This document shows, one piece after another, positions 5,056 to 30,412 of a stretch of DNA of 64,000 nt (positions within the stretch are counted from its first letter, which is position 1; each line of letters starts with the position of its first letter). The DNA is from an uncultured Pseudomonadota bacterium (GTDB lineage: Bacteria > Pseudomonadota > Alphaproteobacteria > Rs-D84), in assembly GCA_902771095.1 (NCBI GenBank), contig CACXVH010000001.1, positions 12,197 to 76,196 of the forward strand, written 5' to 3'. Both the position numbers and the translations under genes were made by a program. Under the pieces are notes generated by a model. That model searched no databases. It was not told the origin of the DNA and was given only the letters and a program-made list of their open reading frames with translations.

Positions 5056-6237
5056 TTATTTCAGGTTGATTTGTTTGTTGTCTGTTATTCTACCATTTAT
5101 TATTCGTGTGTAAATTAAATTATTTTTCAAAGTGCCTGATTCGTTTTTACGAATTACATATATATATTTTGGTAATGTTGCCCATGTCCGAACATCTGTG
5201 TTTGATGAAGCAACTGTATAAATAGATGAAAGTATCCCAAGTATTGGTGCAGAATCACTGCCGGAATTGTACATGGTTGCTTGTAATGTTGCTTTGCTGG
5301 CCGCAGAAGTAAAAGAACGCAACACTTCATTTGTTTGATATTCGCGGTATTCTGTCATAAACATTGCGTCTACATTAGCCAGCAGTTGTGCATTTTGTGG
5401 TGCGCCAAAATCGTCATTCAAGTAAGGTTCAGAAAAAGAAAAATACACCATACCGATATTTGGTAAAAATATTCCTGCATTTTGTTCGCGAAGACGCGGC
5501 GCAAAACCAGAATCAATAAATTGCCAGGTTGTGTTTTTAGGTGCGATTCTTTTTTGCGCCATTTCAAGGTCTTGTTTAATAAAAGTGTTTTCTGGCATCA
5601 TACCATTTGCGCGTTTAAGGTATGTTATCGCGTTATCAAAATCACCATCGTTCAAAAAATATATTCCAGATAGATACATCAATGCTGGATTCATAATATC
5701 AGTGAACGCCACCCAATCGGCTGTGTTTTTATCAATAATTTCATTTAATTCCGAATTTTCCGAAATTTTATTTTTGTTTTCTTCTATCATTTTTTTGTAT
5801 TCAATCGACATATTCTGCTGACGCGCATAAGATTGATTTATAACCACGCGCGCGTTTGCCCAATCGGACAGCGCCAACAAATCCCATATCTGATAATAAG
5901 ATACAAAAAGCGAATCCATCATATACGGCTTATAAGAATTAACACCGCCACCAAGTAAAAGTCCGGTGGCTTCGCGGGAAATCGATGAAGAAGTTTCGCT
6001 TAGATTTCTTTTATTAAATTCTTCAAATTCTGCATCGCTTTCTTTGTATTTATCGGCATGAAATAGGGCGATACCATTTATTAACAAATCAAGATTGTTT
6101 TGTTCTGTCACATTTTTTTCAGATGCTTCAAAATTACCATTTGCAAAATTGTTTTGAATATTATTTAAATACGATTCTGTTGTTGATGCACATGCACCAA
6201 GAAATAAAAACAAACAAAAGCAAATTATTTTACGCAT
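5056..6237 (-). CDS. Hypothetical lipoprotein
   Basis: 393 aa. Lipoprotein signal LFLGAC|AS. Predicted soluble helical/TPR-like domain with no recognised motif. The gap to the upstream T4CP gene is 3 bp. Confidence 0.4.
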   Translation of the reverse strand: MRKIICFCLFLFLGACASTTESYLNNIQNNFANGNFEASEKNVTEQNNLDLLINGIALFHADKYKESDAEFEEFNKRNLSETSSSISREATGLLLGGGVNSYKPYMMDSLFVSYYQIWDLLALSDWANARVVINQSYARQQNMSIEYKKMIEENKNKISENSELNEIIDKNTADWVAFTDIMNPALMYLSGIYFLNDGDFDNAITYLKRANGMMPENTFIKQDLEMAQKRIAPKNTTWQFIDSGFAPRLREQNAGIFLPNIGMVYFSFSEPYLNDDFGAPQNAQLLANVDAMFMTEYREYQTNEVLRSFTSAASKATLQATMYNSGSDSAPILGILSSIYTVASSNTDVRTWATLPKYIYVIRKNESGTLKNNLIYTRIINGRITDNKQINLK

Positions 6238-6240
6238 ATT

Positions 6241-8511
6241 TTAATGCAATGGTTCCAAGATTTTTATTTCATTAGTATTTGGATTCAAAACGCATGGTGT
6301 CCCAGAATAACCCATAATTGCGTGATGAGATGGAATTAAAAATTCTGGTAATGGCGATGCTTCACCCATTGTAACTTTTTCGTACAATTTTTTCTCGATA
6401 TCTGTTTTGTTCAAGAACCATCTTTCTTGATCTGCTTCAATTGGACGATGATACCAACCCTGGTAAATAACGAGTTGTTTACCAGTTTTTAATCGCATTA
6501 TTTCGTATTCGCTGAATATGGGTTCTTCTTTTGGTTTTTTGACTTCTTTACCATCTTCACCTTTTTCAATTTTTTCTGTTTTTTTCATGCCCATCATTTC
6601 AGAAAATCTTTTTGCTGTTTCTGGGTCGTTTTGTCGCAAAACAATTTTTGCCGCGGTTGTAGATATAATCGTATCAGCCGCATCGGCACCGTATTTTTCA
6701 CGAATTTGATGGATATCTTGACCAATTATTAAATAAGACACATTACATCCACGCCCCAAATCTGGTCCCTGGATAACAGCATCCAGTTTTTGCATTTTTG
6801 GCATTTCATCCAACACGAATAACACAGGGCAAGGTCCCATTTTTATTCCGTCTATGGTTTGATTAATATTGTGTGCCAATAAATAACTGGACATCAATTC
6901 AATAAATATTGCGGTAATCGGATTTAATGCCTGGGCATCAACCATATTGATTGATAAGTAAACAGTTACAGGTTTAAATTGACCATCCCTTGGATCAAGC
7001 ATTCCGCGTAAATCAGAAAAATGAAAATCAGAGTGAGATGTTCTGTTTCGAACAGCGGCATTACGGAATATTGCCAAACCTTCAACCATTGTTGAAAGTA
7101 TAGAACCACGTTCTTTATCTGGTGTGTTCGCCAATTGTGTTAATTCAGAAACCGCACGATGTGCGTATGCATAACGGCGCGCTTCTTCGACAGCATTTAA
7201 TAAAACATCTTTCATCGGGTCTGCCATCATAACCATTTGATCGCCCTGGCGTCTGCGTTCTTCCATTTCTTCGGCAATCGCAACCTGGCTTGATGTCAAC
7301 CAATCAAGTATCATTGCAAAAGATGCCTCACGCCCATGCCATGAATCAGGTATGTTTGCCCATGTCCCAACATGAACATAATTCGTTGTGTTTAATTCGC
7401 CGCGTTGCAACATTGAATAGGCAGCATATGCATTTGGATCGTTCATCATTGATAAATAATAATCGCCCAAAAGTGCGGCATCATCCTTGCTTAGTGTGCC
7501 ACTGTTTATGCGGGAATAGAAATAATCGTCTGCCTTGGCGCGTTCTATCTTTGATACGATAAAATTTACCAATCCTGATAATCCGGCGCGTCCAGTATTC
7601 GCCCAGTGTGGGTCTGCATTTGCGCCCTTGCTGTCTGGAACCAAAACCTTGGCCATAGAATCAATATACAAATCGCGCTGTTCCGGATTATAAGGAAGAT
7701 GTTCTGGTGATAATGGATTCCATGATGGATAATATATCCCGCGTGCCGGGTCATCTTGCCCCGCCCAATTCATAATAAACACAGGTCCCACCGTCGAACG
7801 ATACCCAGATGTCAACTGTTTTAATTCTGGTTTTGGGTCATTAATAATCATTGAAACTGTATCGCAATCAAGAATTGTTGGTATTACAACACCGGCGGTT
7901 TTACCAGTTCCTGGAGGTGCCACACACAAAGTAGATAATGCTTCATCAAACATCAATGGTTTGTTTTCACCTTTGTATTTAAAGTATCCCAATACCATCA
8001 TAAAACCATTGAAAAGCCCTTCTTTGTTTTTAAAGTTTGTTCCCATCTTTTTTATATCATCAGCATTTGCCTTGCGCGCAGATTTTTCATCATAGTTATC
8101 TTTGCCGGCAGGATTAAATTCTGATTTTAATGTATCGTCTGCCAAGAAATAATATACAATTACAGGTATCAGTGGTGTCACACATGCAAAATCTGGGTTA
8201 TGAACAGTCCGTGATAACCAATACGGAATTTCCGCGATAACAGACATCCCCAATGTTGAAAACATATTTTTTATATACAGCCAAACCCAATGTGCAGATG
8301 CGGGGCCCCATCCATAACGCCACACATGTTCAACCGCAAAAGATAATCCAAAAGCAAAGGCGCATATCAACCACACCCCGATATTCCATCGGATGTTCCA
8401 AAATTTGCGCGCCACAGGTGCCTGTTCGTGTTCTTTGTATTTTGTTGAATCAAAGATACTTAAACCCTTGCCTGAACCACTGCCTGAGAAAAGGTTGAAC
8501 TTTATTTCCAT
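6241..8511 (-). CDS. Type IV secretion coupling protein, VirD4/TraG family (T4CP)
   Basis: 756 aa from the internal start MEIKF (the track ORF extends to 8580). N-terminal TM helices. Walker A VAPPGTGKTAGVVIPTILD matches the TraG/VirD4 pattern (APTRSGKGVGxVIPxLL). Walker B-like VLFVLDEMP and the LIIGQD motif are present. Length is typical of T4CPs. Confidence 0.7.
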   Translation of the reverse strand: MEIKFNLFSGSGSGKGLSIFDSTKYKEHEQAPVARKFWNIRWNIGVWLICAFAFGLSFAVEHVWRYGWGPASAHWVWLYIKNMFSTLGMSVIAEIPYWLSRTVHNPDFACVTPLIPVIVYYFLADDTLKSEFNPAGKDNYDEKSARKANADDIKKMGTNFKNKEGLFNGFMMVLGYFKYKGENKPLMFDEALSTLCVAPPGTGKTAGVVIPTILDCDTVSMIINDPKPELKQLTSGYRSTVGPVFIMNWAGQDDPARGIYYPSWNPLSPEHLPYNPEQRDLYIDSMAKVLVPDSKGANADPHWANTGRAGLSGLVNFIVSKIERAKADDYFYSRINSGTLSKDDAALLGDYYLSMMNDPNAYAAYSMLQRGELNTTNYVHVGTWANIPDSWHGREASFAMILDWLTSSQVAIAEEMEERRRQGDQMVMMADPMKDVLLNAVEEARRYAYAHRAVSELTQLANTPDKERGSILSTMVEGLAIFRNAAVRNRTSHSDFHFSDLRGMLDPRDGQFKPVTVYLSINMVDAQALNPITAIFIELMSSYLLAHNINQTIDGIKMGPCPVLFVLDEMPKMQKLDAVIQGPDLGRGCNVSYLIIGQDIHQIREKYGADAADTIISTTAAKIVLRQNDPETAKRFSEMMGMKKTEKIEKGEDGKEVKKPKEEPIFSEYEIMRLKTGKQLVIYQGWYHRPIEADQERWFLNKTDIEKKLYEKVTMGEASPLPEFLIPSHHAIMGYSGTPCVLNPNTNEIKILEPLH

Positions 8512-9949: not shown

Positions 9950-10909
9950 ATGAAAAAAATAAAAACTACTAGAAATGTCAAGGTAAAGAAGGTTGTAACC
10001 AAGGGTTCAACTTGCCAGAATGTTATGTGGTCTTGGGCTATATATGTTTATTGGTTTATAATTTTGTTCTTTATCGCGGCTACTTTTTACATTATTGGTC
10101 GTGGTCATGAATTTTTAAGCCCGACAAATAGAAAATTCGTTGTTTCAGAAGAAGTTTTGCAACAATCTCAGGACTATGTTGATGCAGCCAAAGAAAAAAT
10201 AATCGCAGGCGATATAGAGGCGGCAATTGTTGATTTGGATGCAGCGATTGATGCTAATTCAAATGCAAATGTTTATATCTTGCGTGGTGAAGCATATATG
10301 CAAATGGGTGATTATCAAAAAGCGCTAAATGATTTTGATGCCGCACTAGATGTTGATGGTATGAATGCGGTTGCTTTTTATGATAGGGCTTTGTTGAATA
10401 TGCGCCTTGAAAATTATGAAGCGGCGTTGACAGATGTAAACAATGCTTTGGCGGCACAATCTATGAAACCGATGGATGTATTATCGATGCGTGATTTATA
10501 TGCAAAACGCGGTCAATTGAATTTATGGATGAAAAATTGGCAGGGTGCAATTGCTGATTATACCAATTCATTGGCGCGCGCCGAAGGAAGTGTATCTGCG
10601 GATGTTTATGCAGAAAGGGCAGAGGCATACACAGCAATGGGTGAATATGAAAATGCGATTAACGATTATACTTCGGCTGTGCGTGTGATTTCTGAACAAA
10701 TTCAGGCAGAACCAACACAAGAAGGACGCGAATCGCAATCAAGCAATGCAATGTCCTATTTTGAAAAATCTGCTGCACTGAATTTGCAATTGGGACGCAA
10801 TGCATTGGCAAAAAATGATTTGGAATCTGCATATGCTATTGCTGTTGCGTTGAATGATACGGAAAGTATGAACAGAATCCAAAATTTAATAAATGGGTTG
10901 AACAACTAA
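9950..10909 (+). CDS. TPR-repeat protein with N-terminal membrane anchor
   Basis: 319 aa. One TM helix, then repeated 34-residue blocks (A..Y.RG.AY...GDY.KAL.DF..AL). Confidence 0.6.
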   Translation: MKKIKTTRNVKVKKVVTKGSTCQNVMWSWAIYVYWFIILFFIAATFYIIGRGHEFLSPTNRKFVVSEEVLQQSQDYVDAAKEKIIAGDIEAAIVDLDAAIDANSNANVYILRGEAYMQMGDYQKALNDFDAALDVDGMNAVAFYDRALLNMRLENYEAALTDVNNALAAQSMKPMDVLSMRDLYAKRGQLNLWMKNWQGAIADYTNSLARAEGSVSADVYAERAEAYTAMGEYENAINDYTSAVRVISEQIQAEPTQEGRESQSSNAMSYFEKSAALNLQLGRNALAKNDLESAYAIAVALNDTESMNRIQNLINGLNN

Positions 10910-10913
10910 AAAA

Positions 10914-10939
10914 ATCCGCCAAACGGCGGATTTTTTTTT
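10914..10939. terminator. Rho-independent terminator
   Basis: Hairpin ATCCGCC-AAAC-GGCGGAT followed by a T9 run immediately after the TPR gene stop. Confidence 0.8.
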
Positions 10940-11114: not shown

Positions 11115-12848
11115 ATGTCTTATCCAATAGAAACGATTCGTCATTCACTGGCTCATGTGATGGCAGCAGCAGTTAAAAAATTACATCCAGATGTTAAATT
11201 TGCTGGTGGTCCTGCGATTGAAAACGGGTTTTATTATGATTTCGATACTGAATACAGATTCAGCGAATCGGATTTTGAACAAATTGAAAAAGAAATGAAA
11301 TCTTTGATTAAATCTGATGGTCGATTCGATAGACGCGAAATTACACTGGACGAAGCAAAGGAAATTTTTAAAGATCAACCATATAAAATGGAATGGTTAA
11401 ATGAATACGATGCAAGGGGTGAAGCATTATCTATTTATACTTTCCGTGACTTTGTTGATTTGTGTCGTGGACCACACGTTGAATCAAGTAAAGATTTACC
11501 ACGGGACGGCTTTAAAATAAGAACTGTCGCGGGTGCTTATTGGAAGGGTGATTCTAAAAATAAAATGTTGCAAAGAATCTATGTTGATGCGTTTGCAAAT
11601 GCCGAAGAATTGGCTGCGTTTTTGAAAATGCAAGAAGAAGCCGCCGCGCGAGATAATCGTAAGCTTGGTAAAGAAATGGATTTGTTTCATTTTGAACCAG
11701 AATATGCACCGGGTGCTGTATTCTGGCATGACAAAGGATATAAAATTTATCGCAGATTAATAGATTATATTCGTGCGCGTCAGGAAAAGGCCGGCTATTT
11801 AGAAATTTCAACCCCTTCTGTGATGGACAGATGTTTGTGGGAAAAATCAGGACACTGGGCGAAATATGGCGCTCATAATTATTCTGGAACAACTCAGGAT
11901 GGTAAGGTTTTCTGTGTAAAACCTATGTCTTGTCCTGGTGGAATGTTGGTGTTTGGTCAAGGTATTAAATCTTATAAAGATTTGCCATTATATTTGGCTG
12001 AATTTGGCAAGGTAAATCGTTATGAAGCCGCTGGTGCGTTGTCTGGTTTGATGCGTGTTCGTGAATTCACTCAAGACGATGCACATATATTCTGCACAGA
12101 AGAACAATTGGAAAGCGAAGTCGTAAAAATTTTGCGCTTCATTAAAGATATCTATAATAAATTTGGATTTGAAAAAATTACAATGAAATTGGCTACGCGC
12201 CCATTGTCTGAATTTAGAATCGGTAGTGACGAAGTTTGGGACAGGGCAGAAGGTGCACTTAAAAACGCATTGGATAAAAATGGTATCGAATATGAAATTG
12301 CTGAAAACGATGCAGCATTTTATGGGCCTAAAATAGATAATTATTTAAAAGATTCTATGGGACGCGTGTGGCAATGTGGTACTGTGCAATTGGATATGAA
12401 TTTGCCGGAAAGATTTGATTTATCTTATATTGGTGAAGATGGCGAAAAGCATCGTCCAATTATGTTGCATCGCGCTATGTTGGGTTCTATTGAAAGATTT
12501 ATGGGAATTTTGTTGGAATCCACAGGTGGTAATTTGCCATTGTGGTTGTCTCCAGAACCAGTAGTGGTCGCACCTGTATCTGAAAAGTATAAAGATTACG
12601 CGGAAAAAGTCGTAGCTGCATTAAGAAATGCGGGTGTTTATGCGCGTGCTGATTTGCGTGACGAAAAAGTTAATTACAAGGTTCGTGAATTATCATTATC
12701 CAAAACACCAATCATTGCCGTTGTTGGTGAAAAGGAAATGGAAAACGAATCGGTAACATTGCGTTATCTTGGCAAAGAAGGTCAAGATGTGAAATCTTTG
12801 TCTGAATTTGTTGATTATATGAAAGACGCAGTTAAATTGCCGTTATAA
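11115..12848 (+). CDS. thrS: Threonine--tRNA ligase (N1/TGS-domain-less form)
   Basis: 577 aa. Begins at the N2 editing domain (HSLAHVMAAAV ... GFYYDFD). Class II motifs FRDE, GLMRVREFTQDDAHIF and a C-terminal anticodon-binding domain. It lacks about 60 aa relative to E. coli ThrRS. Confidence 0.9.
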   Translation: MSYPIETIRHSLAHVMAAAVKKLHPDVKFAGGPAIENGFYYDFDTEYRFSESDFEQIEKEMKSLIKSDGRFDRREITLDEAKEIFKDQPYKMEWLNEYDARGEALSIYTFRDFVDLCRGPHVESSKDLPRDGFKIRTVAGAYWKGDSKNKMLQRIYVDAFANAEELAAFLKMQEEAAARDNRKLGKEMDLFHFEPEYAPGAVFWHDKGYKIYRRLIDYIRARQEKAGYLEISTPSVMDRCLWEKSGHWAKYGAHNYSGTTQDGKVFCVKPMSCPGGMLVFGQGIKSYKDLPLYLAEFGKVNRYEAAGALSGLMRVREFTQDDAHIFCTEEQLESEVVKILRFIKDIYNKFGFEKITMKLATRPLSEFRIGSDEVWDRAEGALKNALDKNGIEYEIAENDAAFYGPKIDNYLKDSMGRVWQCGTVQLDMNLPERFDLSYIGEDGEKHRPIMLHRAMLGSIERFMGILLESTGGNLPLWLSPEPVVVAPVSEKYKDYAEKVVAALRNAGVYARADLRDEKVNYKVRELSLSKTPIIAVVGEKEMENESVTLRYLGKEGQDVKSLSEFVDYMKDAVKLPL

Positions 12849-17200: not shown

Positions 17201-17389
17201 GTTACAGGGTTTGCTGCTGGTGGTTTGGGTGCTGGTATAACTGCTTCGGTTATTAAACAGAACAAAGAAAATATTAAAAATGAAGCGGCACAACAATGGA
17301 TGGATGAAATCGGTGAACATATCCAATGCTATATTGGCACCGAAGAATTGGGAACATACGGCGATGTCGTAAGTATCGAATTAGATTAA
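14204..17389 (+). CDS. Large secreted cysteine-rich repeat protein with C-terminal glycine-zipper/TM anchor
   Basis: 1061 aa. Sec signal peptide (AVIPASFA|AT). At least two tandem internal repeats of about 110 aa with spaced Cys (ECIEKYTDCIKADDVCGSDMQECT.. / QCVRRYTNCLQRDDICGADFELCT..). C-terminal hydrophobic Gly-rich segments (GTGIGLGLTESGLLGG; IPIVTGFAAGGLGAGITASVI) and a short tail. No known domain recognised. Confidence 0.5.
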   Translation: MRNIVKILSLLSIIAVIPASFAATSRVSVTSKASPRLPSIATRLVSGTVTGTTTTSSTAAYYGDSECIEKYTDCIKADDVCGSDMQECTTNVLFHGQMANCLSVLYQCSSSGINALFGTTAINALSNVAESHTIPSATRSGATEVVVDRYTYPANGSVLGQLIIGAGITNKLTTEQCVRRYTNCLQRDDICGADFELCTSAKTFKKQALLCDSTLQRCQETGKTQLFGSVANANNLTYAGDSRIGTLVAEGASTAALNAVKTCQKVTDNCLVNACAKNPLSCVEGTSLASIDAANIIAEGTGALTTSQVMHDGVETASASDVRKLLKTACLETIGSNRYCHMTYREKVPSDRELGDPDLQEEVFSLAYSARKSYANTKIQEAMKKFDTKAKNSCVETIKECAMRSCGGGLGSVCYTRSKSGDGVHVNDTRTYGDILSGCSAIVNADANCIYAATSAGTDGYTYTYYDEDGSTFSTLFPSYNESVSDPIGAVATLNSILSTSYNPAAIENMKKQCQTIALSCVKAMCGKEYVNCYRSRTDIVSGTYDTGNARLDRSMNKMGGVLDYNIVIGLCMNTVKTSSVCEEHLKIAIADQWPDDRSDTTSWNGYTSVREAWRGANSTEVAAYEGKGIVVACAASSIQQLASTVAALVGGEDAADCTGTMEPLVNSEGMTYCDQSVIDSDTGCIYDQPVYQSQTEYLLTNAGTSLFQTLLADVEKEVQAMYNAKLNKEQRVCMANNNGGIMGNKESGSTFLWVKLRNSKVPKNYVSKGLTTKQFVESNDLYGSFCRARITVQSDDKDIQDLLKNNSVAYFAVGDSFTCGSWISDADLRKISDTVGNRELCKQGYGQWVDGECKGSKLSTKEKIAYAWGTVAPALAGTGIGLGLTESGLLGGWMNSADSKLNDEATRGRSRNSCINYANSANTASDLSLCESYLNSAETLCEEVGGNSNLCSQSIQGNNDETKLKDCKNKALIVKDECTSAYKSNMKTNTAARVTIPIVTGFAAGGLGAGITASVIKQNKENIKNEAAQQWMDEIGEHIQCYIGTEELGTYGDVVSIELD

Positions 17390-17404
17390 TATAATTTGAT
17401 TAAG

Positions 17405-17435
17405 AAAAAAGGTTGCGGGAACGCAACCTTTTTTT
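17405..17435. terminator. Rho-independent terminator
   Basis: GGTTGCG-GGAA-CGCAACC hairpin followed by a T7 run, just after the large gene. Confidence 0.8.
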
Positions 17436-17607
17436 ATAGGTTATTATGGATTCCCACGGTCACTGATATATTCTAAGAATAATAACGTTTGCCTTTTGAT
17501 TGTTTTGTTTTTATAATCAAATAAAATTTGATTATGGTAAAAGTGGAAACCACCCCGGTGCTTCGCACCACCCCTCCATAGAGGGGAACTAAAAAAAGGA
17601 ATGCATC

Positions 17608-18657
17608 ATGTTTAAAAAATTATTACGGAAAATTTTTGGTCCACGCGGTAAAAAAATTACAGCTGGGGAATTGGCTAAAAAATTTGGTTTGGAATTAAAA
17701 GGTAATTCAAAACAGCTTGTTGACGGTGTTGCACCAATCGCTGATGCAAAACCTGGACAACTGGCTTTCTATTCCACAGAACGTAATTCAAATGCTTTTA
17801 AAATATTACCGATTGAGGTTTTGGAAAATACCAAGGCATCGGTCATTTTATTACAAAAAGAGCAAATTAAACATGCACCAAAAGGGGCTACTCTTTTGAT
17901 AACAGATTCCCCGCGTGGAAACATTGTTAAAATATTGGGGGAAATTTATGCTGAAAAACCGCGCTTTGGTGTGTCTTATTTTGCAACTGTGGAGCGCGGG
18001 GTTTTCTTTCGCAAAAAGCGCACTAATTATGTCGGTCAATACGCAACGATTGAAAAGGGCGCTGTGTTAGAGGCGGGGGTAAAGATTTATCCTGGTGCTT
18101 TTATCGGTCGTAATGTGATTTTGGGGGCAAACACAGTTGTTCATACTGGCGCACATATTGAAAATGCAACCATTGGTTCTGATTGCGTTATAAATGCGAA
18201 TGCTGTTATTGGTAAAGACGGTTTTGGATATACGCGTCAAAATGGGAAAAATGTGTTTATTCCGCATACTGGACGCGTGATTTTGGGTAATCGTGTATCT
18301 GTTGGTTCAAATACTTGTATCGACCGTGGTGCGATGACAGACACCATTGTTGGGGACGGAACAAAAATTGATAATTTGTGTCAGATTGCACATGGTGTTG
18401 TTATCGGCAAAGAATGTTTCTTGGCGGCTGGTGTTGGATTGGCCGGCGGTGTGGTCGTTGGTAATCGTGTGCTGTTGGCGGGGCAGGTTGGTATTCCAAA
18501 TGGTATTCATATTGGTGATGATGTTGAAGTTGGTGCAAAAAGTGGTGTGTTCCGTAATATTCCAAAAGGTGAAAGATGGATGGGATTGCCTGCGGGCCCT
18601 GGTATAGAATTCTTCCGTCATTATGCGTGGGTAAAAAAGAATATGGAAAAGAAATAA
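17608..18657 (+). CDS. lpxD: UDP-3-O-(3-hydroxyacyl)glucosamine N-acyltransferase
   Basis: 349 aa. N-terminal LpxD-type domain followed by many hexapeptide (left-handed beta-helix) repeats (IGxNVxIGAN...). Confidence 0.85.
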   Translation: MFKKLLRKIFGPRGKKITAGELAKKFGLELKGNSKQLVDGVAPIADAKPGQLAFYSTERNSNAFKILPIEVLENTKASVILLQKEQIKHAPKGATLLITDSPRGNIVKILGEIYAEKPRFGVSYFATVERGVFFRKKRTNYVGQYATIEKGAVLEAGVKIYPGAFIGRNVILGANTVVHTGAHIENATIGSDCVINANAVIGKDGFGYTRQNGKNVFIPHTGRVILGNRVSVGSNTCIDRGAMTDTIVGDGTKIDNLCQIAHGVVIGKECFLAAGVGLAGGVVVGNRVLLAGQVGIPNGIHIGDDVEVGAKSGVFRNIPKGERWMGLPAGPGIEFFRHYAWVKKNMEKK

Positions 18658-27953: not shown

Positions 27954-28637
27954 ATGTTTATAAGAAAAGATAATACTTTGAAATGGAAATGGATTTTATT
28001 TGGCGCGATTTTAACAATTGCGCTGGTGTTGGGATGTGTGTTCGGTTGGGACAAGGATTTATATTCAATTTTACACAATCCACAATGTAACCCGTGGACA
28101 ATGGGTGATGGATTTTGGTGCGGCGTTGCATTTGTATTGGGAAAAATTTTTAGTACAAAAATGTGGTTTGTGGCATCTTTGTTGGCAGTGATAAGTTTCT
28201 TTGTATACAAAGCTGTCACGAATGAAAACGATTTCCGATTCGCTTTTGTAAAGATAAAGAACAGTTATGCTTTCTATTTATTGTGTTCTGTATTGATGGC
28301 GATTTTAACAACCGGTGTATTAAAGGTTTTAATTGGTCGTTCCAGACCCATTATTTACGAGGCATTAGATGCGACTTTCTTTGTCCCTGGGACATTTGAA
28401 AGTGTGTTTAATTCAATGCCGTCTGGACATACAGCGGTCAGTTTTGCCGGTCTTGTTATGATTGGAATGTTGCTTCCGAAAATTAAATGGGCAACATGGA
28501 CCTTGGCAATAATTATTGGTTTGTCGCGTGTTTATATCGGCGCGCATTGGGCGGGTGATGTTATTTTGGGTGCGTTTATCGGAATGTTATGCGCAGATTT
28601 GACCAAGGCATTGTTAAAGAAAATAAATACGAAATAA
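27954..28637 (+). CDS. PAP2-family lipid phosphatase (PgpB/LpxE/LpxF-like)
   Basis: 227 aa. Polytopic membrane protein with PAP2 motifs KxxxxxxRP (KVLIGRSRP), PSGH (MPSGHTA) and SRxxxxxHxxxD (SRVYIGAHWAGD). Confidence 0.75.
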   Translation: MFIRKDNTLKWKWILFGAILTIALVLGCVFGWDKDLYSILHNPQCNPWTMGDGFWCGVAFVLGKIFSTKMWFVASLLAVISFFVYKAVTNENDFRFAFVKIKNSYAFYLLCSVLMAILTTGVLKVLIGRSRPIIYEALDATFFVPGTFESVFNSMPSGHTAVSFAGLVMIGMLLPKIKWATWTLAIIIGLSRVYIGAHWAGDVILGAFIGMLCADLTKALLKKINTK

Positions 28638-28644
28638 AAAAATT

Positions 28645-28810
28645 CTCCCCCAGTGGGGGAGTACCGATGAAGGCGGGGAGGGGGGTGAACCCTCCCCACC
28701 GCAATGCGGTCCCCCCCCCTCCGGTGGAGGGGAATTCACACTCGTCGCGGACTTACATTCTCTCCCTGTGGGGGAGGGAACCACGAAGTGGTGAGGGGGG
28801 TAAAAAACTT
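28645..28810. repeat. GC-rich composite repeat, copy L (short G/C hairpins plus a direct repeat ending GGTGAGGGGGGTAAAAAA)
   Basis: In an AT-rich background there are palindromes CTCCCCC-AGT-GGGGGAG (28645..28661), CCGC-AAT-GCGG, a C9 homopolymer, CCTCC-GGT-GGAGG and CCAC-GAA-GTGG. The 65-bp block 28743..28807 is repeated at 29242..29309. Confidence 0.8.
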
Positions 28811-28846
28811 CTTGCTAGTTATGTTTATTTGTTTTACTTTTTTTGC

Positions 28847-29194
28847 ATGCATAATTATAACGGTAAACTTAAAAAATTAGCGCGCGCAAATCGCAGGGCG
28901 GGAAATTTATCAGAAGCATTGCTTTGGTGTGAATTAAAGAACAGTAAACTAGGGGTAAGTTTTACCAAGCAAAAACCGATTGGGAATTATATTGCTGATT
29001 TTTACTGTGCTGAAAAAAATATGGTTATAGAAATAGACGGTTGGTCGCACGATAATAAATACGAATATGACAAGGTGCGTGATGAATACATGAAAACACT
29101 TGGGATACATGTGTTGAGAATATCTGATATAGATGTAAAACGTGATATGTCAGGGACTCTTGATTGGATAAAGATAAATCTTGATATGTTGTAA
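28847..29194 (+). CDS. DUF559-type endonuclease-domain protein (very-short-patch-repair/Mrr-like restriction fold)
   Basis: 115 aa from the internal ATG at 28847. Motifs match DUF559 proteins (ALLWCELKN ... FTKQKPIGNYIADFYC ... IEIDGWSHD). The track ORF starts at 28589 only because the GC-rich repeat happens to be an open frame. Confidence 0.65.
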   Translation: MHNYNGKLKKLARANRRAGNLSEALLWCELKNSKLGVSFTKQKPIGNYIADFYCAEKNMVIEIDGWSHDNKYEYDKVRDEYMKTLGIHVLRISDIDVKRDMSGTLDWIKINLDML

Positions 29195-29309
29195 CCCCCC
29201 TCCGGCTGGCGCCGCACTCCCCCGGTGGGGGAGAATCCGCCCGCGACAGGGACTTATATTCTCCCCCTGTGGGGGAGGGGACCACGAAGTGGTGAGGGGG
29301 GTAAAAAAA
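29195..29309. repeat. GC-rich composite repeat, copy R
   Basis: C7 tract, palindrome CTCCCCC-GGT-GGGGGAG (29217..29233), and a 68-bp direct repeat (29242..29309) nearly identical to 28743..28807, including CTGTGGGGGAGGG, CCACGAAGTGGTGAGGGGGGTAAAAAA(A). Confidence 0.8.

Positions 29310-29377: not shown

Positions 29378-30412
<1,035 letters not shown>

What the first reader, a model, noticed from the sequence alone, without database searches (positions are those of the whole stretch)
28645..29309. GC-rich hairpin/direct-repeat cassette bracketing a DUF559 endonuclease gene: candidate miniature mobile or selfish element
Within an AT-rich intergenic region, 665 bp are markedly GC-rich. Two copies of a composite repeat flank the gene. 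Each has a palindrome CTCCCCC-NGT-GGGGGAG, a poly-C tract and an approximately 65-bp direct repeat ending in CCACGAAGTGGTGAGGGGGGTAAAAAA. One copy is upstream (28645..28810) and one downstream (29195..29309) of a 115-aa DUF559 (Vsr/Mrr-like nuclease fold) gene. Additional mini-hairpins lie between them (CCGC-AAT-GCGG, CCTCC-GGT-GGAGG, CCAC-GAA-GTGG). The architecture resembles REP/RPE-type or MITE-like elements that have captured or carry a nuclease ORF. Alternatively it could be a structured RNA locus. The C9 and G6 homopolymers are additional slippage-prone sites.
Basis: seen in the sequence. Interest (0 to 1): 0.65.

Follow-up and report, generated by a model that had tools for sequence, protein, structure and literature searches.

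The report
Hairpin-bounded DUF559 nuclease selfish element
A small nuclease gene bracketed by inverted copies of a conserved 46-base GC-rich double-hairpin is a 660-bp insertion that is absent from the same site in related strains. The same gene-plus-hairpin design recurs across many bacterial phyla, so it looks like a so-far undescribed kind of selfish mobile DNA.

Summary
Two GC-rich blocks (28641-28807 and 29192-29308) flank an AT-rich 115-aa DUF559 gene (28847-29194). "665 bp GC-rich" is wrong, because the gene itself is 34% GC.

- **Module.** The blocks are five copies of one 46-nt module: AATTCCCCTCC-N3-GGAGGGG, a second hairpin that covaries and has a C-GNA-G triloop, and a G-tail. Copies next to the gene are inverted.
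- **Generality.** In 1.27 Mb of relatives, 146 of 186 modules lie within 500 nt of a DUF559 gene. The upstream neighbour points its G-tail at the gene in 39 of 39 cases.
- **Mobility.**
  - The orthologous site is empty in L090/L091 and holds modules only in L087.
  - A 416-nt core is identical in three different contexts.
  - Flank identity rises towards the element only between filled alleles.
- **Gene-less copies.** Searching by module first, only 11% of copies adjoin the gene, and gene-less pairs of 104-154 bp exist.
- **Protein.** dN/dS is about 0.1. The fold is Vsr-like, closest to NGO0050 and the homing endonuclease I-Bth0305I.

Best reading: a nuclease-only selfish element with MITE-like derivatives that spreads through host recombination. 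No match in Rfam and none in the paper library I could search. The mechanism is inferred.

The parts
28641..28687 (+). Module M_G1, G-orientation (hairpin 1 CTCCCCC-AGT-GGGGGAG, degenerate hairpin 2 CCGATGAAGGCGG, G-tail GGGGAGGGGGGT). With M_C1 it forms a gene-less head-to-head pair.
   Evidence: Covariance model R1, 49.9 bits, E 5.8e-12; sequence.
28688..28736 (-). Module M_C1, inverted orientation (AACCCTCCCC-ACCGCAATGCGGT-C9-TCC-GGT-GGAGGGGAATT). It contains the C9 run.
   Evidence: R1, 47.3 bits; sequence.
28737..28756 (.). Spacer CACACTCGTCGCGGACTTAC between two hairpin-1 ends. It recurs at 29238-29256 and in L001, L095 and L096.
28757..28803 (+). Module M_G2, the left inverted repeat next to the gene (ATTCTCTCCC-TGT-GGGGGAG, CCAC-GAA-GTGG, GAGGGGGGT).
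   Evidence: R1, 24.7 bits over 28757-28800; the same module type sits next to the gene in L007 and L009.
28793..29208 (+). Core: 416 nt with zero substitutions between the window and L001 (L002 is identical up to its contig end, which corresponds to 29204). It is bounded by the inverted sequences GAGGGGGGT and ACCCCCCTC.
   Evidence: Alignment A2.
28812..28840 (+). Promoter-like TTGCTA-17-TACTTT, ending 6 nt before the ATG, which implies a leaderless mRNA. The geometry is conserved in relatives (L007 TTGATT-17-TATGTT-6-ATG; L009 TTGAAT-17-TACAAT-6-ATG).
   Evidence: Read from the sequences. The consensus scanner did not call the window copy, whose -10 is weak. This part is inferred.
28847..29194 (+). 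DUF559 (Vsr-like PD-(D/E)xK) nuclease gene, 115 aa.
   Evidence: Pfam E 6.7e-26; PDB 3HRL E 3.5e-21; AlphaFold2 pLDDT 86 with Foldseek hits 3HRL, I-Bth0305I and Vsr; dN/dS about 0.11.
29192..29237 (-). Module M_C2, the right inverted repeat. It starts inside the stop codon (TAACCCCCCTCCGGCTGGCGCCGCA-CTCCCCC-GGT-GGGGGAG-AAT).
   Evidence: R1, 42.2 bits.
29257..29303 (+). Module M_G3, a solo G-orientation copy. Together with the preceding spacer it is the second copy of the 97-nt direct repeat.
   Evidence: R1, 39.1 bits; direct repeat D1.
17547..17590 (-). Solo module of another subtype (AACCACCCC-GGTGCTTCGCACC-ACCCCTCC-ATA-GAGGGGAAC), 17 nt upstream of the ATG at 17608.
   Evidence: R1, 45.2 bits; same subtype, score and length as L008 7539-7582; context.

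Best explanation
Window 28641-29303 is an insertion made of a small selfish element and its debris.

**Anatomy.** The autonomous unit is about 480 bp (28757-29237). It consists of a promoter plus a leaderless 115-aa DUF559 nuclease gene, bracketed by two inverted copies of a 46-nt double-hairpin module. The remaining modules are a gene-less head-to-head pair (28641-28736) and a solo copy (29257-29303). These are non-autonomous, MITE/REP-like relatives.

**Proposed mechanism.**
1. The nuclease recognises the modules, or the junction they form. The conserved parts that could be read are the stem of hairpin 1, the G-tail, and a hairpin 2 that is conserved in shape only. The modules are probably read as extruded or single-stranded DNA hairpins.
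2. The nuclease nicks or cuts there.
3. Host recombination and repair then copy the element, and gene-less module units, into the broken or homologous site. This is homing-like and carries flanking sequence along.
4. Slippage and recombination between modules produce the tandem arrays, shuffling and deletions seen between strains.

**Shown:** the anatomy, the conservation of the association across phyla, the insertion polymorphism, identical cores in different contexts, the identity gradient in the flanks, purifying selection, and the nuclease fold.

**Inferred:** that the nuclease acts on the modules, the DNA-level nature of the hairpins, and the copying pathway.
For: **Module.** A 46-nt consensus was derived from 80 unique copies.
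- Hairpin 2 has 28 different arm sequences. A Watson-Crick stem of 4 bp or more is present in 77.5% of copies, against 12.7% in shuffles.
- 35 of 62 hairpin-2 loops are GNA triloops.
- On 145 distinct copies, 5 of 6 hairpin-2 pairs show compensatory changes. The covariation score is 0.242 against 0.079, with 0 of 500 shuffles as high.

**Association with the gene.**
- C/G hairpins occur at 1.95 per kb within 400 nt of DUF559 genes, against 0.093 per kb elsewhere.
- 146 of 186 covariance-model hits lie within 500 nt of the gene.
- The adjacent upstream module is in G-orientation in 39 of 39 cases; the adjacent downstream module is inverted in 28 of 35.
- 30 loci have modules on both sides, including Chlorobi, Desulfatiglans and Gammaproteobacteria.

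**Mobility.**
- Empty sites: L090/L091, L088/L089 and L092-94. Modules-only site: L087.
- The window is empty at the position of the L018 element.
- Of the 22 close-clade loci compared, only L029 and L031 share any gene with the window's 20-kb neighbourhood.
- The 416-nt core is identical in the window, L001 and L002, each with an unrelated upstream context.

**Recombination-type spread.**
- Between the window and L096, the core is 98.4% identical but PAP2 only 88.8%.
- PAP2 identity per 60 nt rises towards the element: 83, 85, 73, 90, 100, 93, 91, 97.
- Against three empty alleles the profile is flat at about 80%.
- Diverged duplicates of the host gene's 3' end flank the elements in L013, L015 and L029.

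**Non-autonomous copies.** Only 9 of 81 evaluable module matches in metagenomes have DUF559 next to them. Nine gene-less head-to-head pairs of 104-154 bp were found.

**Protein.**
Against: - No biochemical link between the nuclease and the modules has been shown. The association could be maintained in another way.
- A 115-aa nuclease cannot carry out strand transfer, so copying must be done by the host. This is assumed, not shown.
- Gene-less head-to-head junctions sit right next to an intact gene (28677-28697) without being converted. That is awkward if the junction is the cleavage target.
- Module density in this genome is low: one solo in 64 kb.
- No clear target-site duplication is visible. 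The terminal AATT is part of the palindrome.
- The flank-identity gradient rests on one pair of filled alleles with three controls on the PAP2 side. The decline on the other side, against L001, has no control.
- The covariation alignment was fitted to the model.
Confidence: 0.6

Rival explanations
1. A REPtron-like domesticated system. The modules are the mobile, REP-like entities. The DUF559 gene is a resident host-level nuclease that processes or multiplies them, and the gene-plus-module unit does not itself move.
For: Modules far outnumber genes when sampling starts from the module. The gene is flanked by inverted modules, as RAYT genes are flanked by REPs (definition in PMC6006769). Some insertions are shared by several species: L029/30/31 and L024/28/38. 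E. coli ycjD is fixed within phylogroups.
Against: The gene-bearing core is nucleotide-identical in three unrelated contexts. It is absent from orthologous sites. It sits in a different neighbourhood in nearly every related genome. Some genomes carry two copies.
Confidence: 0.22
2. The GC-rich blocks are structured RNA: a cis-regulatory leader or trailer, a small RNA, or a partner RNA for the protein.
For: Both blocks fold better than shuffles, with z scores of -2.8 and -4.4. Hairpin 2 covaries. In the minimal forms (L024-L031) the G-tail GGGGAGGG lies 3-8 nt before the ATG, where a ribosome-binding site would be.
Against: No Rfam family matches, even at E up to 10. Modules occur in both orientations, around the gene and as solos, with no bias relative to neighbouring genes: 35/29 and 32/27. 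Loops are mostly 3 nt, typically C-GNA-G. From my own knowledge of nucleic-acid hairpins, that is the especially stable DNA mini-hairpin, not a typical RNA loop. The cassette promoter lies downstream of the upstream modules.
Confidence: 0.06
3. An ordinary Vsr-type mismatch-repair gene, or a remnant of a restriction system, that happens to lie among unrelated intergenic repeats.
For: The fold and family are Vsr-like. JGI labels several homologues "very-short-patch-repair endonuclease".
Against: Only DUF559 and a sub-threshold MTES_1575 match appear in Pfam. Neither neighbouring gene is a methyltransferase: they are a PAP2 gene and a secreted-protein gene. There is no convincing PADLOC match. 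The link to the modules holds across phyla, so it is not chance.
Confidence: 0.04
4. The upstream GC-rich block is coding: a 201-aa protein starting at 28589 with an N-terminal extension.
For: The frame is open from 28589 to 29194. Some database homologues are annotated with 129-175 aa.
Against: Most of the 120 best homologues are 115 aa. The extensions do not align with one another. They are translations of modules whose number and order differ between strains. A conserved promoter lies between the module and the ATG.
Confidence: 0.02

Closest known systems
REPtrons: RAYT/TnpA-REP genes with REP/BIME/REPIN repeats
   Same: A small nuclease gene is flanked by inverted copies of a short GC-rich hairpin repeat. 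The repeat also occurs without the gene, as singles, inverted doublets and mosaic arrays in intergenic DNA (PMC6006769).
   Different: The protein is a PD-(D/E)xK, Vsr-like nuclease, not an HUH-Y1 enzyme. There is no GTAG foot. The repeat is a double hairpin with a G-tail. Here the gene-bearing unit appears to move, whereas REPtrons are described as not transposing as a unit.
Free-standing homing endonuclease genes, especially the Vsr-like/EDxHD family (I-Bth0305I)
   Same: A nuclease-only selfish gene. I-Bth0305I is the second-best solved structural match, with TM 0.61-0.72 (PMC3239194 and PMC2677866 describe the family). The cassette is present or absent at one locus, and the flanks show a signature like co-conversion.
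   Different: It lies in intergenic DNA, not in an intron, an intein or a conserved gene. It carries terminal inverted double-hairpin repeats and has gene-less derivatives, which homing endonuclease genes lack. Sequence similarity to I-Bth0305I is marginal, at E 0.1.
IS elements with MITE derivatives, and IS200/IS605 with hairpin ends
   Same: Terminal inverted repeats, short gene-less derivatives, multiple genomic sites, and hairpin-forming ends.
   Different: No transposase of any known class is present. No clear target-site duplication is seen. The flank gradient points to recombination rather than transposition.
GC clusters and double-hairpin elements of fungal mitochondrial DNA
   Same: GC-rich hairpin modules scattered in AT-rich intergenic DNA and showing insertion polymorphism (PMC4478555, listed). 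From my own knowledge, mobile endonuclease ORFs in such genomes can leave duplicated 3' ends of genes, as seen here in L013 and L015.
   Different: Those elements are organellar, have unrelated sequences, and have no dedicated protein assigned to them.
E. coli YcjD and Neisseria NGO0050 (PDB 3HRL), uncharacterised DUF559 proteins
   Same: The same protein family. The ycjD locus also has a C/G hairpin with a G-rich tail and a duplicated 3' end of the gene downstream, and it is present in only 62% of complete E. coli genomes.
   Different: The E. coli module is too diverged to be found by model R1. No function or mobility has been reported for ycjD.

Membership tests
DUF559 / Vsr-like PD-(D/E)xK nucleases (PF04480) | Profile match above the curated threshold | tested here: met
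   90.7 bits against a cut-off of 20.6, covering 2-107 of 109 profile positions. NCBIfam PRK09767 (YcjD) matches at 55.8 bits, below its equivalog cut-off of 218, so this is a homologue and not an equivalog.
DUF559 / Vsr-like PD-(D/E)xK nucleases (PF04480) | Vsr-like alpha/beta nuclease fold | tested here: met
   AlphaFold2 mean pLDDT 86.4. Foldseek against the PDB: 3HRL (TM 0.69-0.84), I-Bth0305I 3R3P (0.61-0.72), Vsr 1VSR (0.56).
DUF559 / Vsr-like PD-(D/E)xK nucleases (PF04480) | Conserved acidic and histidine residues of the active site | tested here: met
   D51, E62, H68, D69 and D75 are invariant, and D64 is conserved in at least 90% of 31 sequences. Catalysis itself was not tested.
True Vsr repair endonuclease | Vsr profile (PF03852) and a partner cytosine-5 methyltransferase gene next door | tested here: not met
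   No Vsr Pfam match is listed at E 0.01 or better. The neighbours are a PAP2 gene and a secreted protein with a Flg_new domain.
Homing endonuclease gene | Presence/absence polymorphism of the nuclease gene at one locus | tested here: met
   Filled: window and L096. Empty: L090/L091, L088/89 and L092-94. Modules only: L087.
Homing endonuclease gene | Co-conversion of flanking sequence | tested here: inconclusive
   A gradient appears towards the element between filled alleles only, and the profile is flat against three empty alleles. This rests on one pair, so it is suggestive only.
Homing endonuclease gene | Cleavage of the empty allele by the encoded enzyme | not testable with these tools
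   Needs purified protein and substrates.
REPtron (RAYT + REP) | HUH-Y1 transposase-like protein | tested here: not met
   Pfam shows only DUF559 and MTES_1575.
REPtron (RAYT + REP) | Gene flanked by inverted hairpin repeats that also occur elsewhere without the gene | tested here: met
REPtron (RAYT + REP) | Tens to hundreds of repeat copies per genome, with a single stable gene | not tested
   No complete genome of this lineage could be scanned. The window has 1 solo in 64 kb.
IS / MITE | Terminal inverted repeats and gene-less derivatives | tested here: met
IS / MITE | A recognised transposase and a target-site duplication | tested here: not met
   No transposase domain was found. The terminal AATT cannot be told apart from the palindrome itself, and long flank duplications occur in only 4 loci.
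Rfam structured RNA families | Covariance-model match | tested here: not met
   In the window region only sub-threshold chance hits appear at E up to 10. In eight related loci, nothing but rRNA and tRNA reaches the gathering score.
Known anti-phage defence systems (PADLOC) | Match to a defence-system component | tested here: not met
   Only weak partial hits to nuclease domains of large proteins, the best at E 4.6e-5 and 19 bits.

The most novel reading that the evidence does not exclude
The small DUF559 proteins, annotated everywhere as "endonuclease domain-containing" or "very-short-patch-repair endonuclease" and including E. coli YcjD, may be the nucleases of a widespread and so-far unrecognised class of nuclease-only mobile element. 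These elements would have inverted double-hairpin ends recognised as DNA hairpins. They would seed REP/MITE-like GC-rich repeat families across Proteobacteria, Bacteroidota, Cyanobacteria, Chlorobi and the candidate phyla radiation, and would propagate by nicking plus host recombination rather than by a transposase.
Probability: 0.4. Interest if true: 0.85.

Novelty: new variant of a known kind. Interest (0 to 1): 0.72.

Why it matters
DUF559 is a large, widespread family with no assigned biological role. Linking it to a defined DNA module and to insertion polymorphism yields a testable function.

If the nuclease does act on the double-hairpin module, this would be a second, independent solution to the "nuclease plus hairpin repeat" life-style, using a PD-(D/E)xK enzyme instead of an HUH enzyme. 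It would also be a source of intergenic GC-rich repeats.

There are practical consequences:
- The modules break metagenome assemblies. Contigs L002 and L087 end in or just beyond them.
- They produce false N-terminal extensions in gene calls.
- They can sit directly in front of neighbouring genes.

A small nuclease with a long structured recognition site could also interest tool developers.

Tried and rejected
- **Rfam.** I scanned the region at E up to 10 and eight related loci at the gathering threshold. Nothing relevant appeared.
- **N-terminal extension.** Reading the upstream block as coding was rejected.
- **Target-site duplication.** None was defined. The terminal AATT is part of the palindrome. 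The empty site shows only A-runs on both sides.
- **Long host-flank duplications as a general signature.** They occur in only 4 loci: L013 (50 nt), L015 (81 nt), L029 (23 nt) and L023 (inverted, 250 nt). They are not general.
- **Homing into the palindromic junction GGGGGGT|AACCCCCC.** The core's identity boundaries fit this idea. But uninterrupted junctions lie next to an intact gene, and gene-less pairs have variable spacers. The question is left open.
- **Clean empty site for E. coli ycjD.** The alternative allele carries a different operon, eefRABCD, so there is no clean comparison.
- **Solo modules inside genes.** The crude stop-to-stop ORF test put half of loosely defined solos "inside" ORFs. 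I consider this unreliable in GC-rich contigs and did not use it.
- **Defence-system membership.** Rejected.
- **Literature.** Searches for DUF559, ycjD, Vsr-like plus REP, and hairpin elements found no description of this association.
Full report
**1. What is in the window**

The region is not one GC-rich stretch. Two GC-rich blocks (28641-28807 and 29192-29308) flank an AT-rich gene. The stretches of at least 70% GC, counted in 40-nt frames, are 28644-28752, 29185-29256 and 29260-29303. The gene is 34% GC in a window of 37.6% GC.

The ORF 28847..29194 (+) encodes 115 aa and matches Pfam DUF559 at E 6.7e-26.

- The 97-nt direct repeat is 84% identical, and its 27-nt end is identical in both copies.
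- The palindrome CTCCCCC-NGT-GGGGGAG occurs four times, with none expected by chance.
- The small hairpins and homopolymer runs are there.

Rfam finds nothing meaningful.

**2. The repeats are copies of one module**

Comparison with relatives shows a 46-nt unit with four parts:
- AATT, then hairpin 1: CCCCTCC-N3-GGAGGGG. In this lineage the stem is CTCCCCC/GGGGGAG.
- A short linker, TG.
- Hairpin 2: a 4-6 bp stem, usually closed by C:G around a GNA triloop.
- A G-rich tail: GGGG(A/T)GG(T)T.

Among 80 unique copies, hairpin 2 uses 28 different arm sequences. It forms a Watson-Crick stem of at least 4 bp in 77.5% of copies, against 12.7% of shuffles. Of 62 hairpin-2 loops, 35 are GAA, GCA or GTA.

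A covariance model (R1) finds exactly six copies in the 64-kb window with filters off. Five are at this locus in alternating orientation. One is a solo at 17547-17590.

On 145 distinct copies, hairpin 1 is 99% paired and almost invariant in sequence. Five of six hairpin-2 pairs show compensatory changes. The covariation score is 0.242 against 0.079 in shuffles (0 of 500 as high) and 0.04-0.06 when the partners are slid. That alignment is fitted to the model, so it leans towards the structure.

The locus therefore reads as follows:
- A gene-less head-to-head pair, 28641-28736.
- A spacer.
- A module in G-orientation, the promoter, the gene, and an inverted module: 28757-29237.
- The same spacer again.
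- A solo module, 29257-29303.

**3. The association with DUF559 is general**

The protein has 436 close homologues, mostly 115 aa. A scan of one genome per species returned 80 loci. The closest (65-83% identity) are gut and rumen Alphaproteobacteria, labelled Candidatus Enterousia. More distant ones come from Cyanobacteria, Bacteroidota, Chlorobi, Gamma- and Betaproteobacteria and the candidate phyla radiation.

- C/G-type hairpins are 21-fold enriched within 400 nt of the gene: 1.95 against 0.093 per kb.
- With R1, 146 of 186 modules lie within 500 nt of a DUF559 gene.
- The module next to the start codon has its G-tail towards the gene in 39 of 39 cases. The module after the stop codon is inverted in 28 of 35.
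- Thirty loci have modules on both sides.

The distance from the upstream module to the ATG falls mainly into two groups.
- At 41-49 nt, the gap holds a conserved promoter of the form TTGAAT-17-TAnAAT about 6 nt before the ATG. This implies a leaderless mRNA.
- At 3-9 nt, the G-tail GGGGAGGG lies where a ribosome-binding site would be.
- A few distant loci have gaps of 20-22 or 54-83 nt.

This reading of the gaps is mine, from the sequences.

**4. Evidence that it is an insertion and that it moves**

(a) *Empty sites.* I took orthologues of the neighbouring PAP2 gene and fetched their contigs.
- L090/L091 (PAP2 83% identical) go from the PAP2 stop codon through AT-rich DNA to the same (CA)n-bearing leader as in the window. 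They have no module and no gene.
- L088/L089 and L092-94 also lack the cassette.
- L087 (98% identical) has a truncated module and one full module but no gene.
- L096 is a filled allele with different module content.

(b) *Different neighbourhoods.* Of the 22 close-clade loci compared, only L029 and L031 share any gene with the window's 20-kb neighbourhood, and there the element sits at a different position.

(c) *A second empty site.* The window is empty where L018 carries a full element, in the orthologous intergenic region 17389-17608. It has its own solo module about 70 nt away.

(d) *Identical cores.* A 416-nt core (28793-29208) runs from GAGGGGGGT through promoter and gene to ACCCCCCTC. 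It has no substitution between the window and L001. L002 is identical as far as its contig reaches. These come from different samples and have unrelated upstream DNA. The shared downstream host gene is only about 83% identical between the window and L001.

(e) *Two copies per genome.* Four genomes carry two copies.

**5. Evidence on how it spreads**

Between the two filled alleles (window and L096), module plus core is 98.4% identical but the PAP2 3' part only 88.8%. PAP2 identity per 60 nt climbs towards the element: 83, 85, 73, 90, 100, 93, 91, 97. The same windows compared with three empty alleles are flat at about 80%.

This is what co-conversion during homing, or transfer by homologous recombination, would leave. 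It rests on one pair, so I treat it as suggestive.

In L013, L015 and L029 the last 23-81 nt of the upstream host gene are repeated after the element, with a few differences between the two copies. This also fits acquisition by recombination. It is not general.

No target-site duplication could be defined, and no transposase is present.

**6. Gene-less copies predominate**

I scanned metagenome contigs for the module itself, not the gene. This gave 105 matches in 80 loci. Of 81 matches with enough sequence on the tail side, 9 (11%) have a DUF559 ORF there. Ten of the 80 loci contain the gene at all. Nine head-to-head gene-less pairs of 104-154 bp were found, with variable short spacers.

Close strains differ in the number, order and indels of modules, and in the length of the C-run after the stop codon. 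In L095 the stop codon is lost and a 171-aa product is called. Solo modules show no orientation bias relative to neighbouring ORFs, though the gene calls used were crude.

**7. The protein**

- dN/dS among 16 close genes has a median of 0.11.
- D51, E62, H68, D69 and D75 are invariant, and D64 is conserved in at least 90% of sequences.
- The closest solved sequences are NGO0050 (3HRL, E 3.5e-21) and, marginally, the catalytic domain of the homing endonuclease I-Bth0305I (E 0.1).
- The predicted structure (pLDDT 86) matches 3HRL, I-Bth0305I and Vsr.
- There is no Vsr profile match, no adjacent methyltransferase and no defence-system match.

**8. Interpretation**

The best-supported reading is a nuclease-only selfish element bounded by inverted double-hairpin modules. 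It has MITE/REP-like gene-less derivatives and spreads with the help of host recombination.

I infer that the nuclease recognises the modules. The pattern of conservation is what protein-recognised DNA hairpins show in REP/RAYT and IS200/IS605 systems: hairpin 1 and the tail are fixed in sequence, while hairpin 2 is fixed in shape only. I also infer that the hairpins act as DNA rather than RNA, because:
- both orientations occur;
- there is no bias relative to neighbouring genes;
- triloops of the C-GNA-G type dominate. That these are unusually stable in DNA is my own knowledge, not a result obtained here.

The main rival is a REPtron-like arrangement in which only the modules move. The two readings are not exclusive.

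**9. Comparison with what is known**

It resembles REPtrons in layout (PMC6006769) and Vsr-like homing endonuclease genes in enzyme and in allele behaviour (PMC2677866, PMC3239194). It fails a defining feature of each: there is no HUH enzyme, no intron, intein or gene target, and no transposase.

I found no paper that links DUF559 with such repeats.

E. coli ycjD shows the same theme. Downstream of the gene lie a C/G hairpin, the sequence CCCCTCTGGGGAGAGGGTTAGGGTGAGGGG, and a duplicated 3' end of the gene. The region is complete in 3375 of 5426 complete genomes, and matches to parts of the query (which spans the ycjD gene and both flanking intergenic regions) occur at a median of 4 places per genome. 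A recent study notes that ycjD sits where other phylogroups carry eefRABCD (PMC12817139).

**10. Verdict**

It is a new variant of a known kind of system, with a mechanism that remains to be shown.

Noticed in passing
window 29431-29455: An (AC)n tract of about 12.5 units lies in the 5' part of the downstream secreted-protein ORF (29378-30412), giving HTHTHT in the product. Its length differs between strains: longer in L001, similar in L095, about 7 units in L090/L091. It is a candidate phase-variation switch.
   Followed up: partly
window 17547-17590: A solo double-hairpin module of another subtype lies 17 nt upstream of the ATG at 17608. The same subtype occurs as a solo in L008 at 7539-7582. 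The same intergenic region carries a full DUF559 element in L018.
   Followed up: yes
L217 (E. coli K-12 NC_000913.3) 5200-5460, minus strand: The DUF559 gene ycjD is followed by a C/G hairpin, a roughly 40-nt duplicate of its own 3' end, and a module-like CCCCTCTGGGGAGAGGGTTAGGGTGAGGGG. The region is complete in 3375 of 5426 complete genomes; others carry eefRABCD at this site. Matches to parts of the query (ycjD plus both flanking intergenic regions) occur at a median of 4 places per genome.
   Followed up: partly
L004/L005 1327-2691: A 108-aa ORF and a 341-aa reverse transcriptase (RVT_1) lie directly upstream of the DUF559 element. The layout resembles a diversity-generating retroelement.
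   Followed up: no
L023 9656-9905 and 10402-10651: The host DNA on the two sides of the element forms an inverted repeat of at least 250 nt at 86% identity, so the element sits at the centre of a large palindrome.
   Followed up: no
L007 about 10880-10920 and 12745-12790; L009 downstream of the gene; L013 downstream; L021 both flanks: A second, less GC-rich hairpin repeat (about GTAACGATTnCnC..CACTTCGTTTG..AATCTACTTGTATTC) repeatedly lies next to the double-hairpin modules.
   Followed up: no
L095 291-806; proteins P0001, P0002, P0013, P0053, P0065: Database gene calls for this family often carry 15-60 extra N-terminal residues, which are translations of the modules. In L095 the stop codon is lost (TAA to TAC) and the C-run is expanded, so the product reads through.
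   Followed up: partly
L003/L008 (about 3560-3660 in L003) and L027 upstream flank: Some elements lie directly beside tRNA genes. In L027 the left module begins a few nucleotides after a tRNA 3' end.
   Followed up: no
L096 1195-1260: In a strain with the same PAP2 site filled, an extra lone hairpin (ATTCTCCCCCAAGGGGAGAAT) and further GC-rich sequence are inserted between the promoter-like region and the start of the downstream gene.
   Followed up: no
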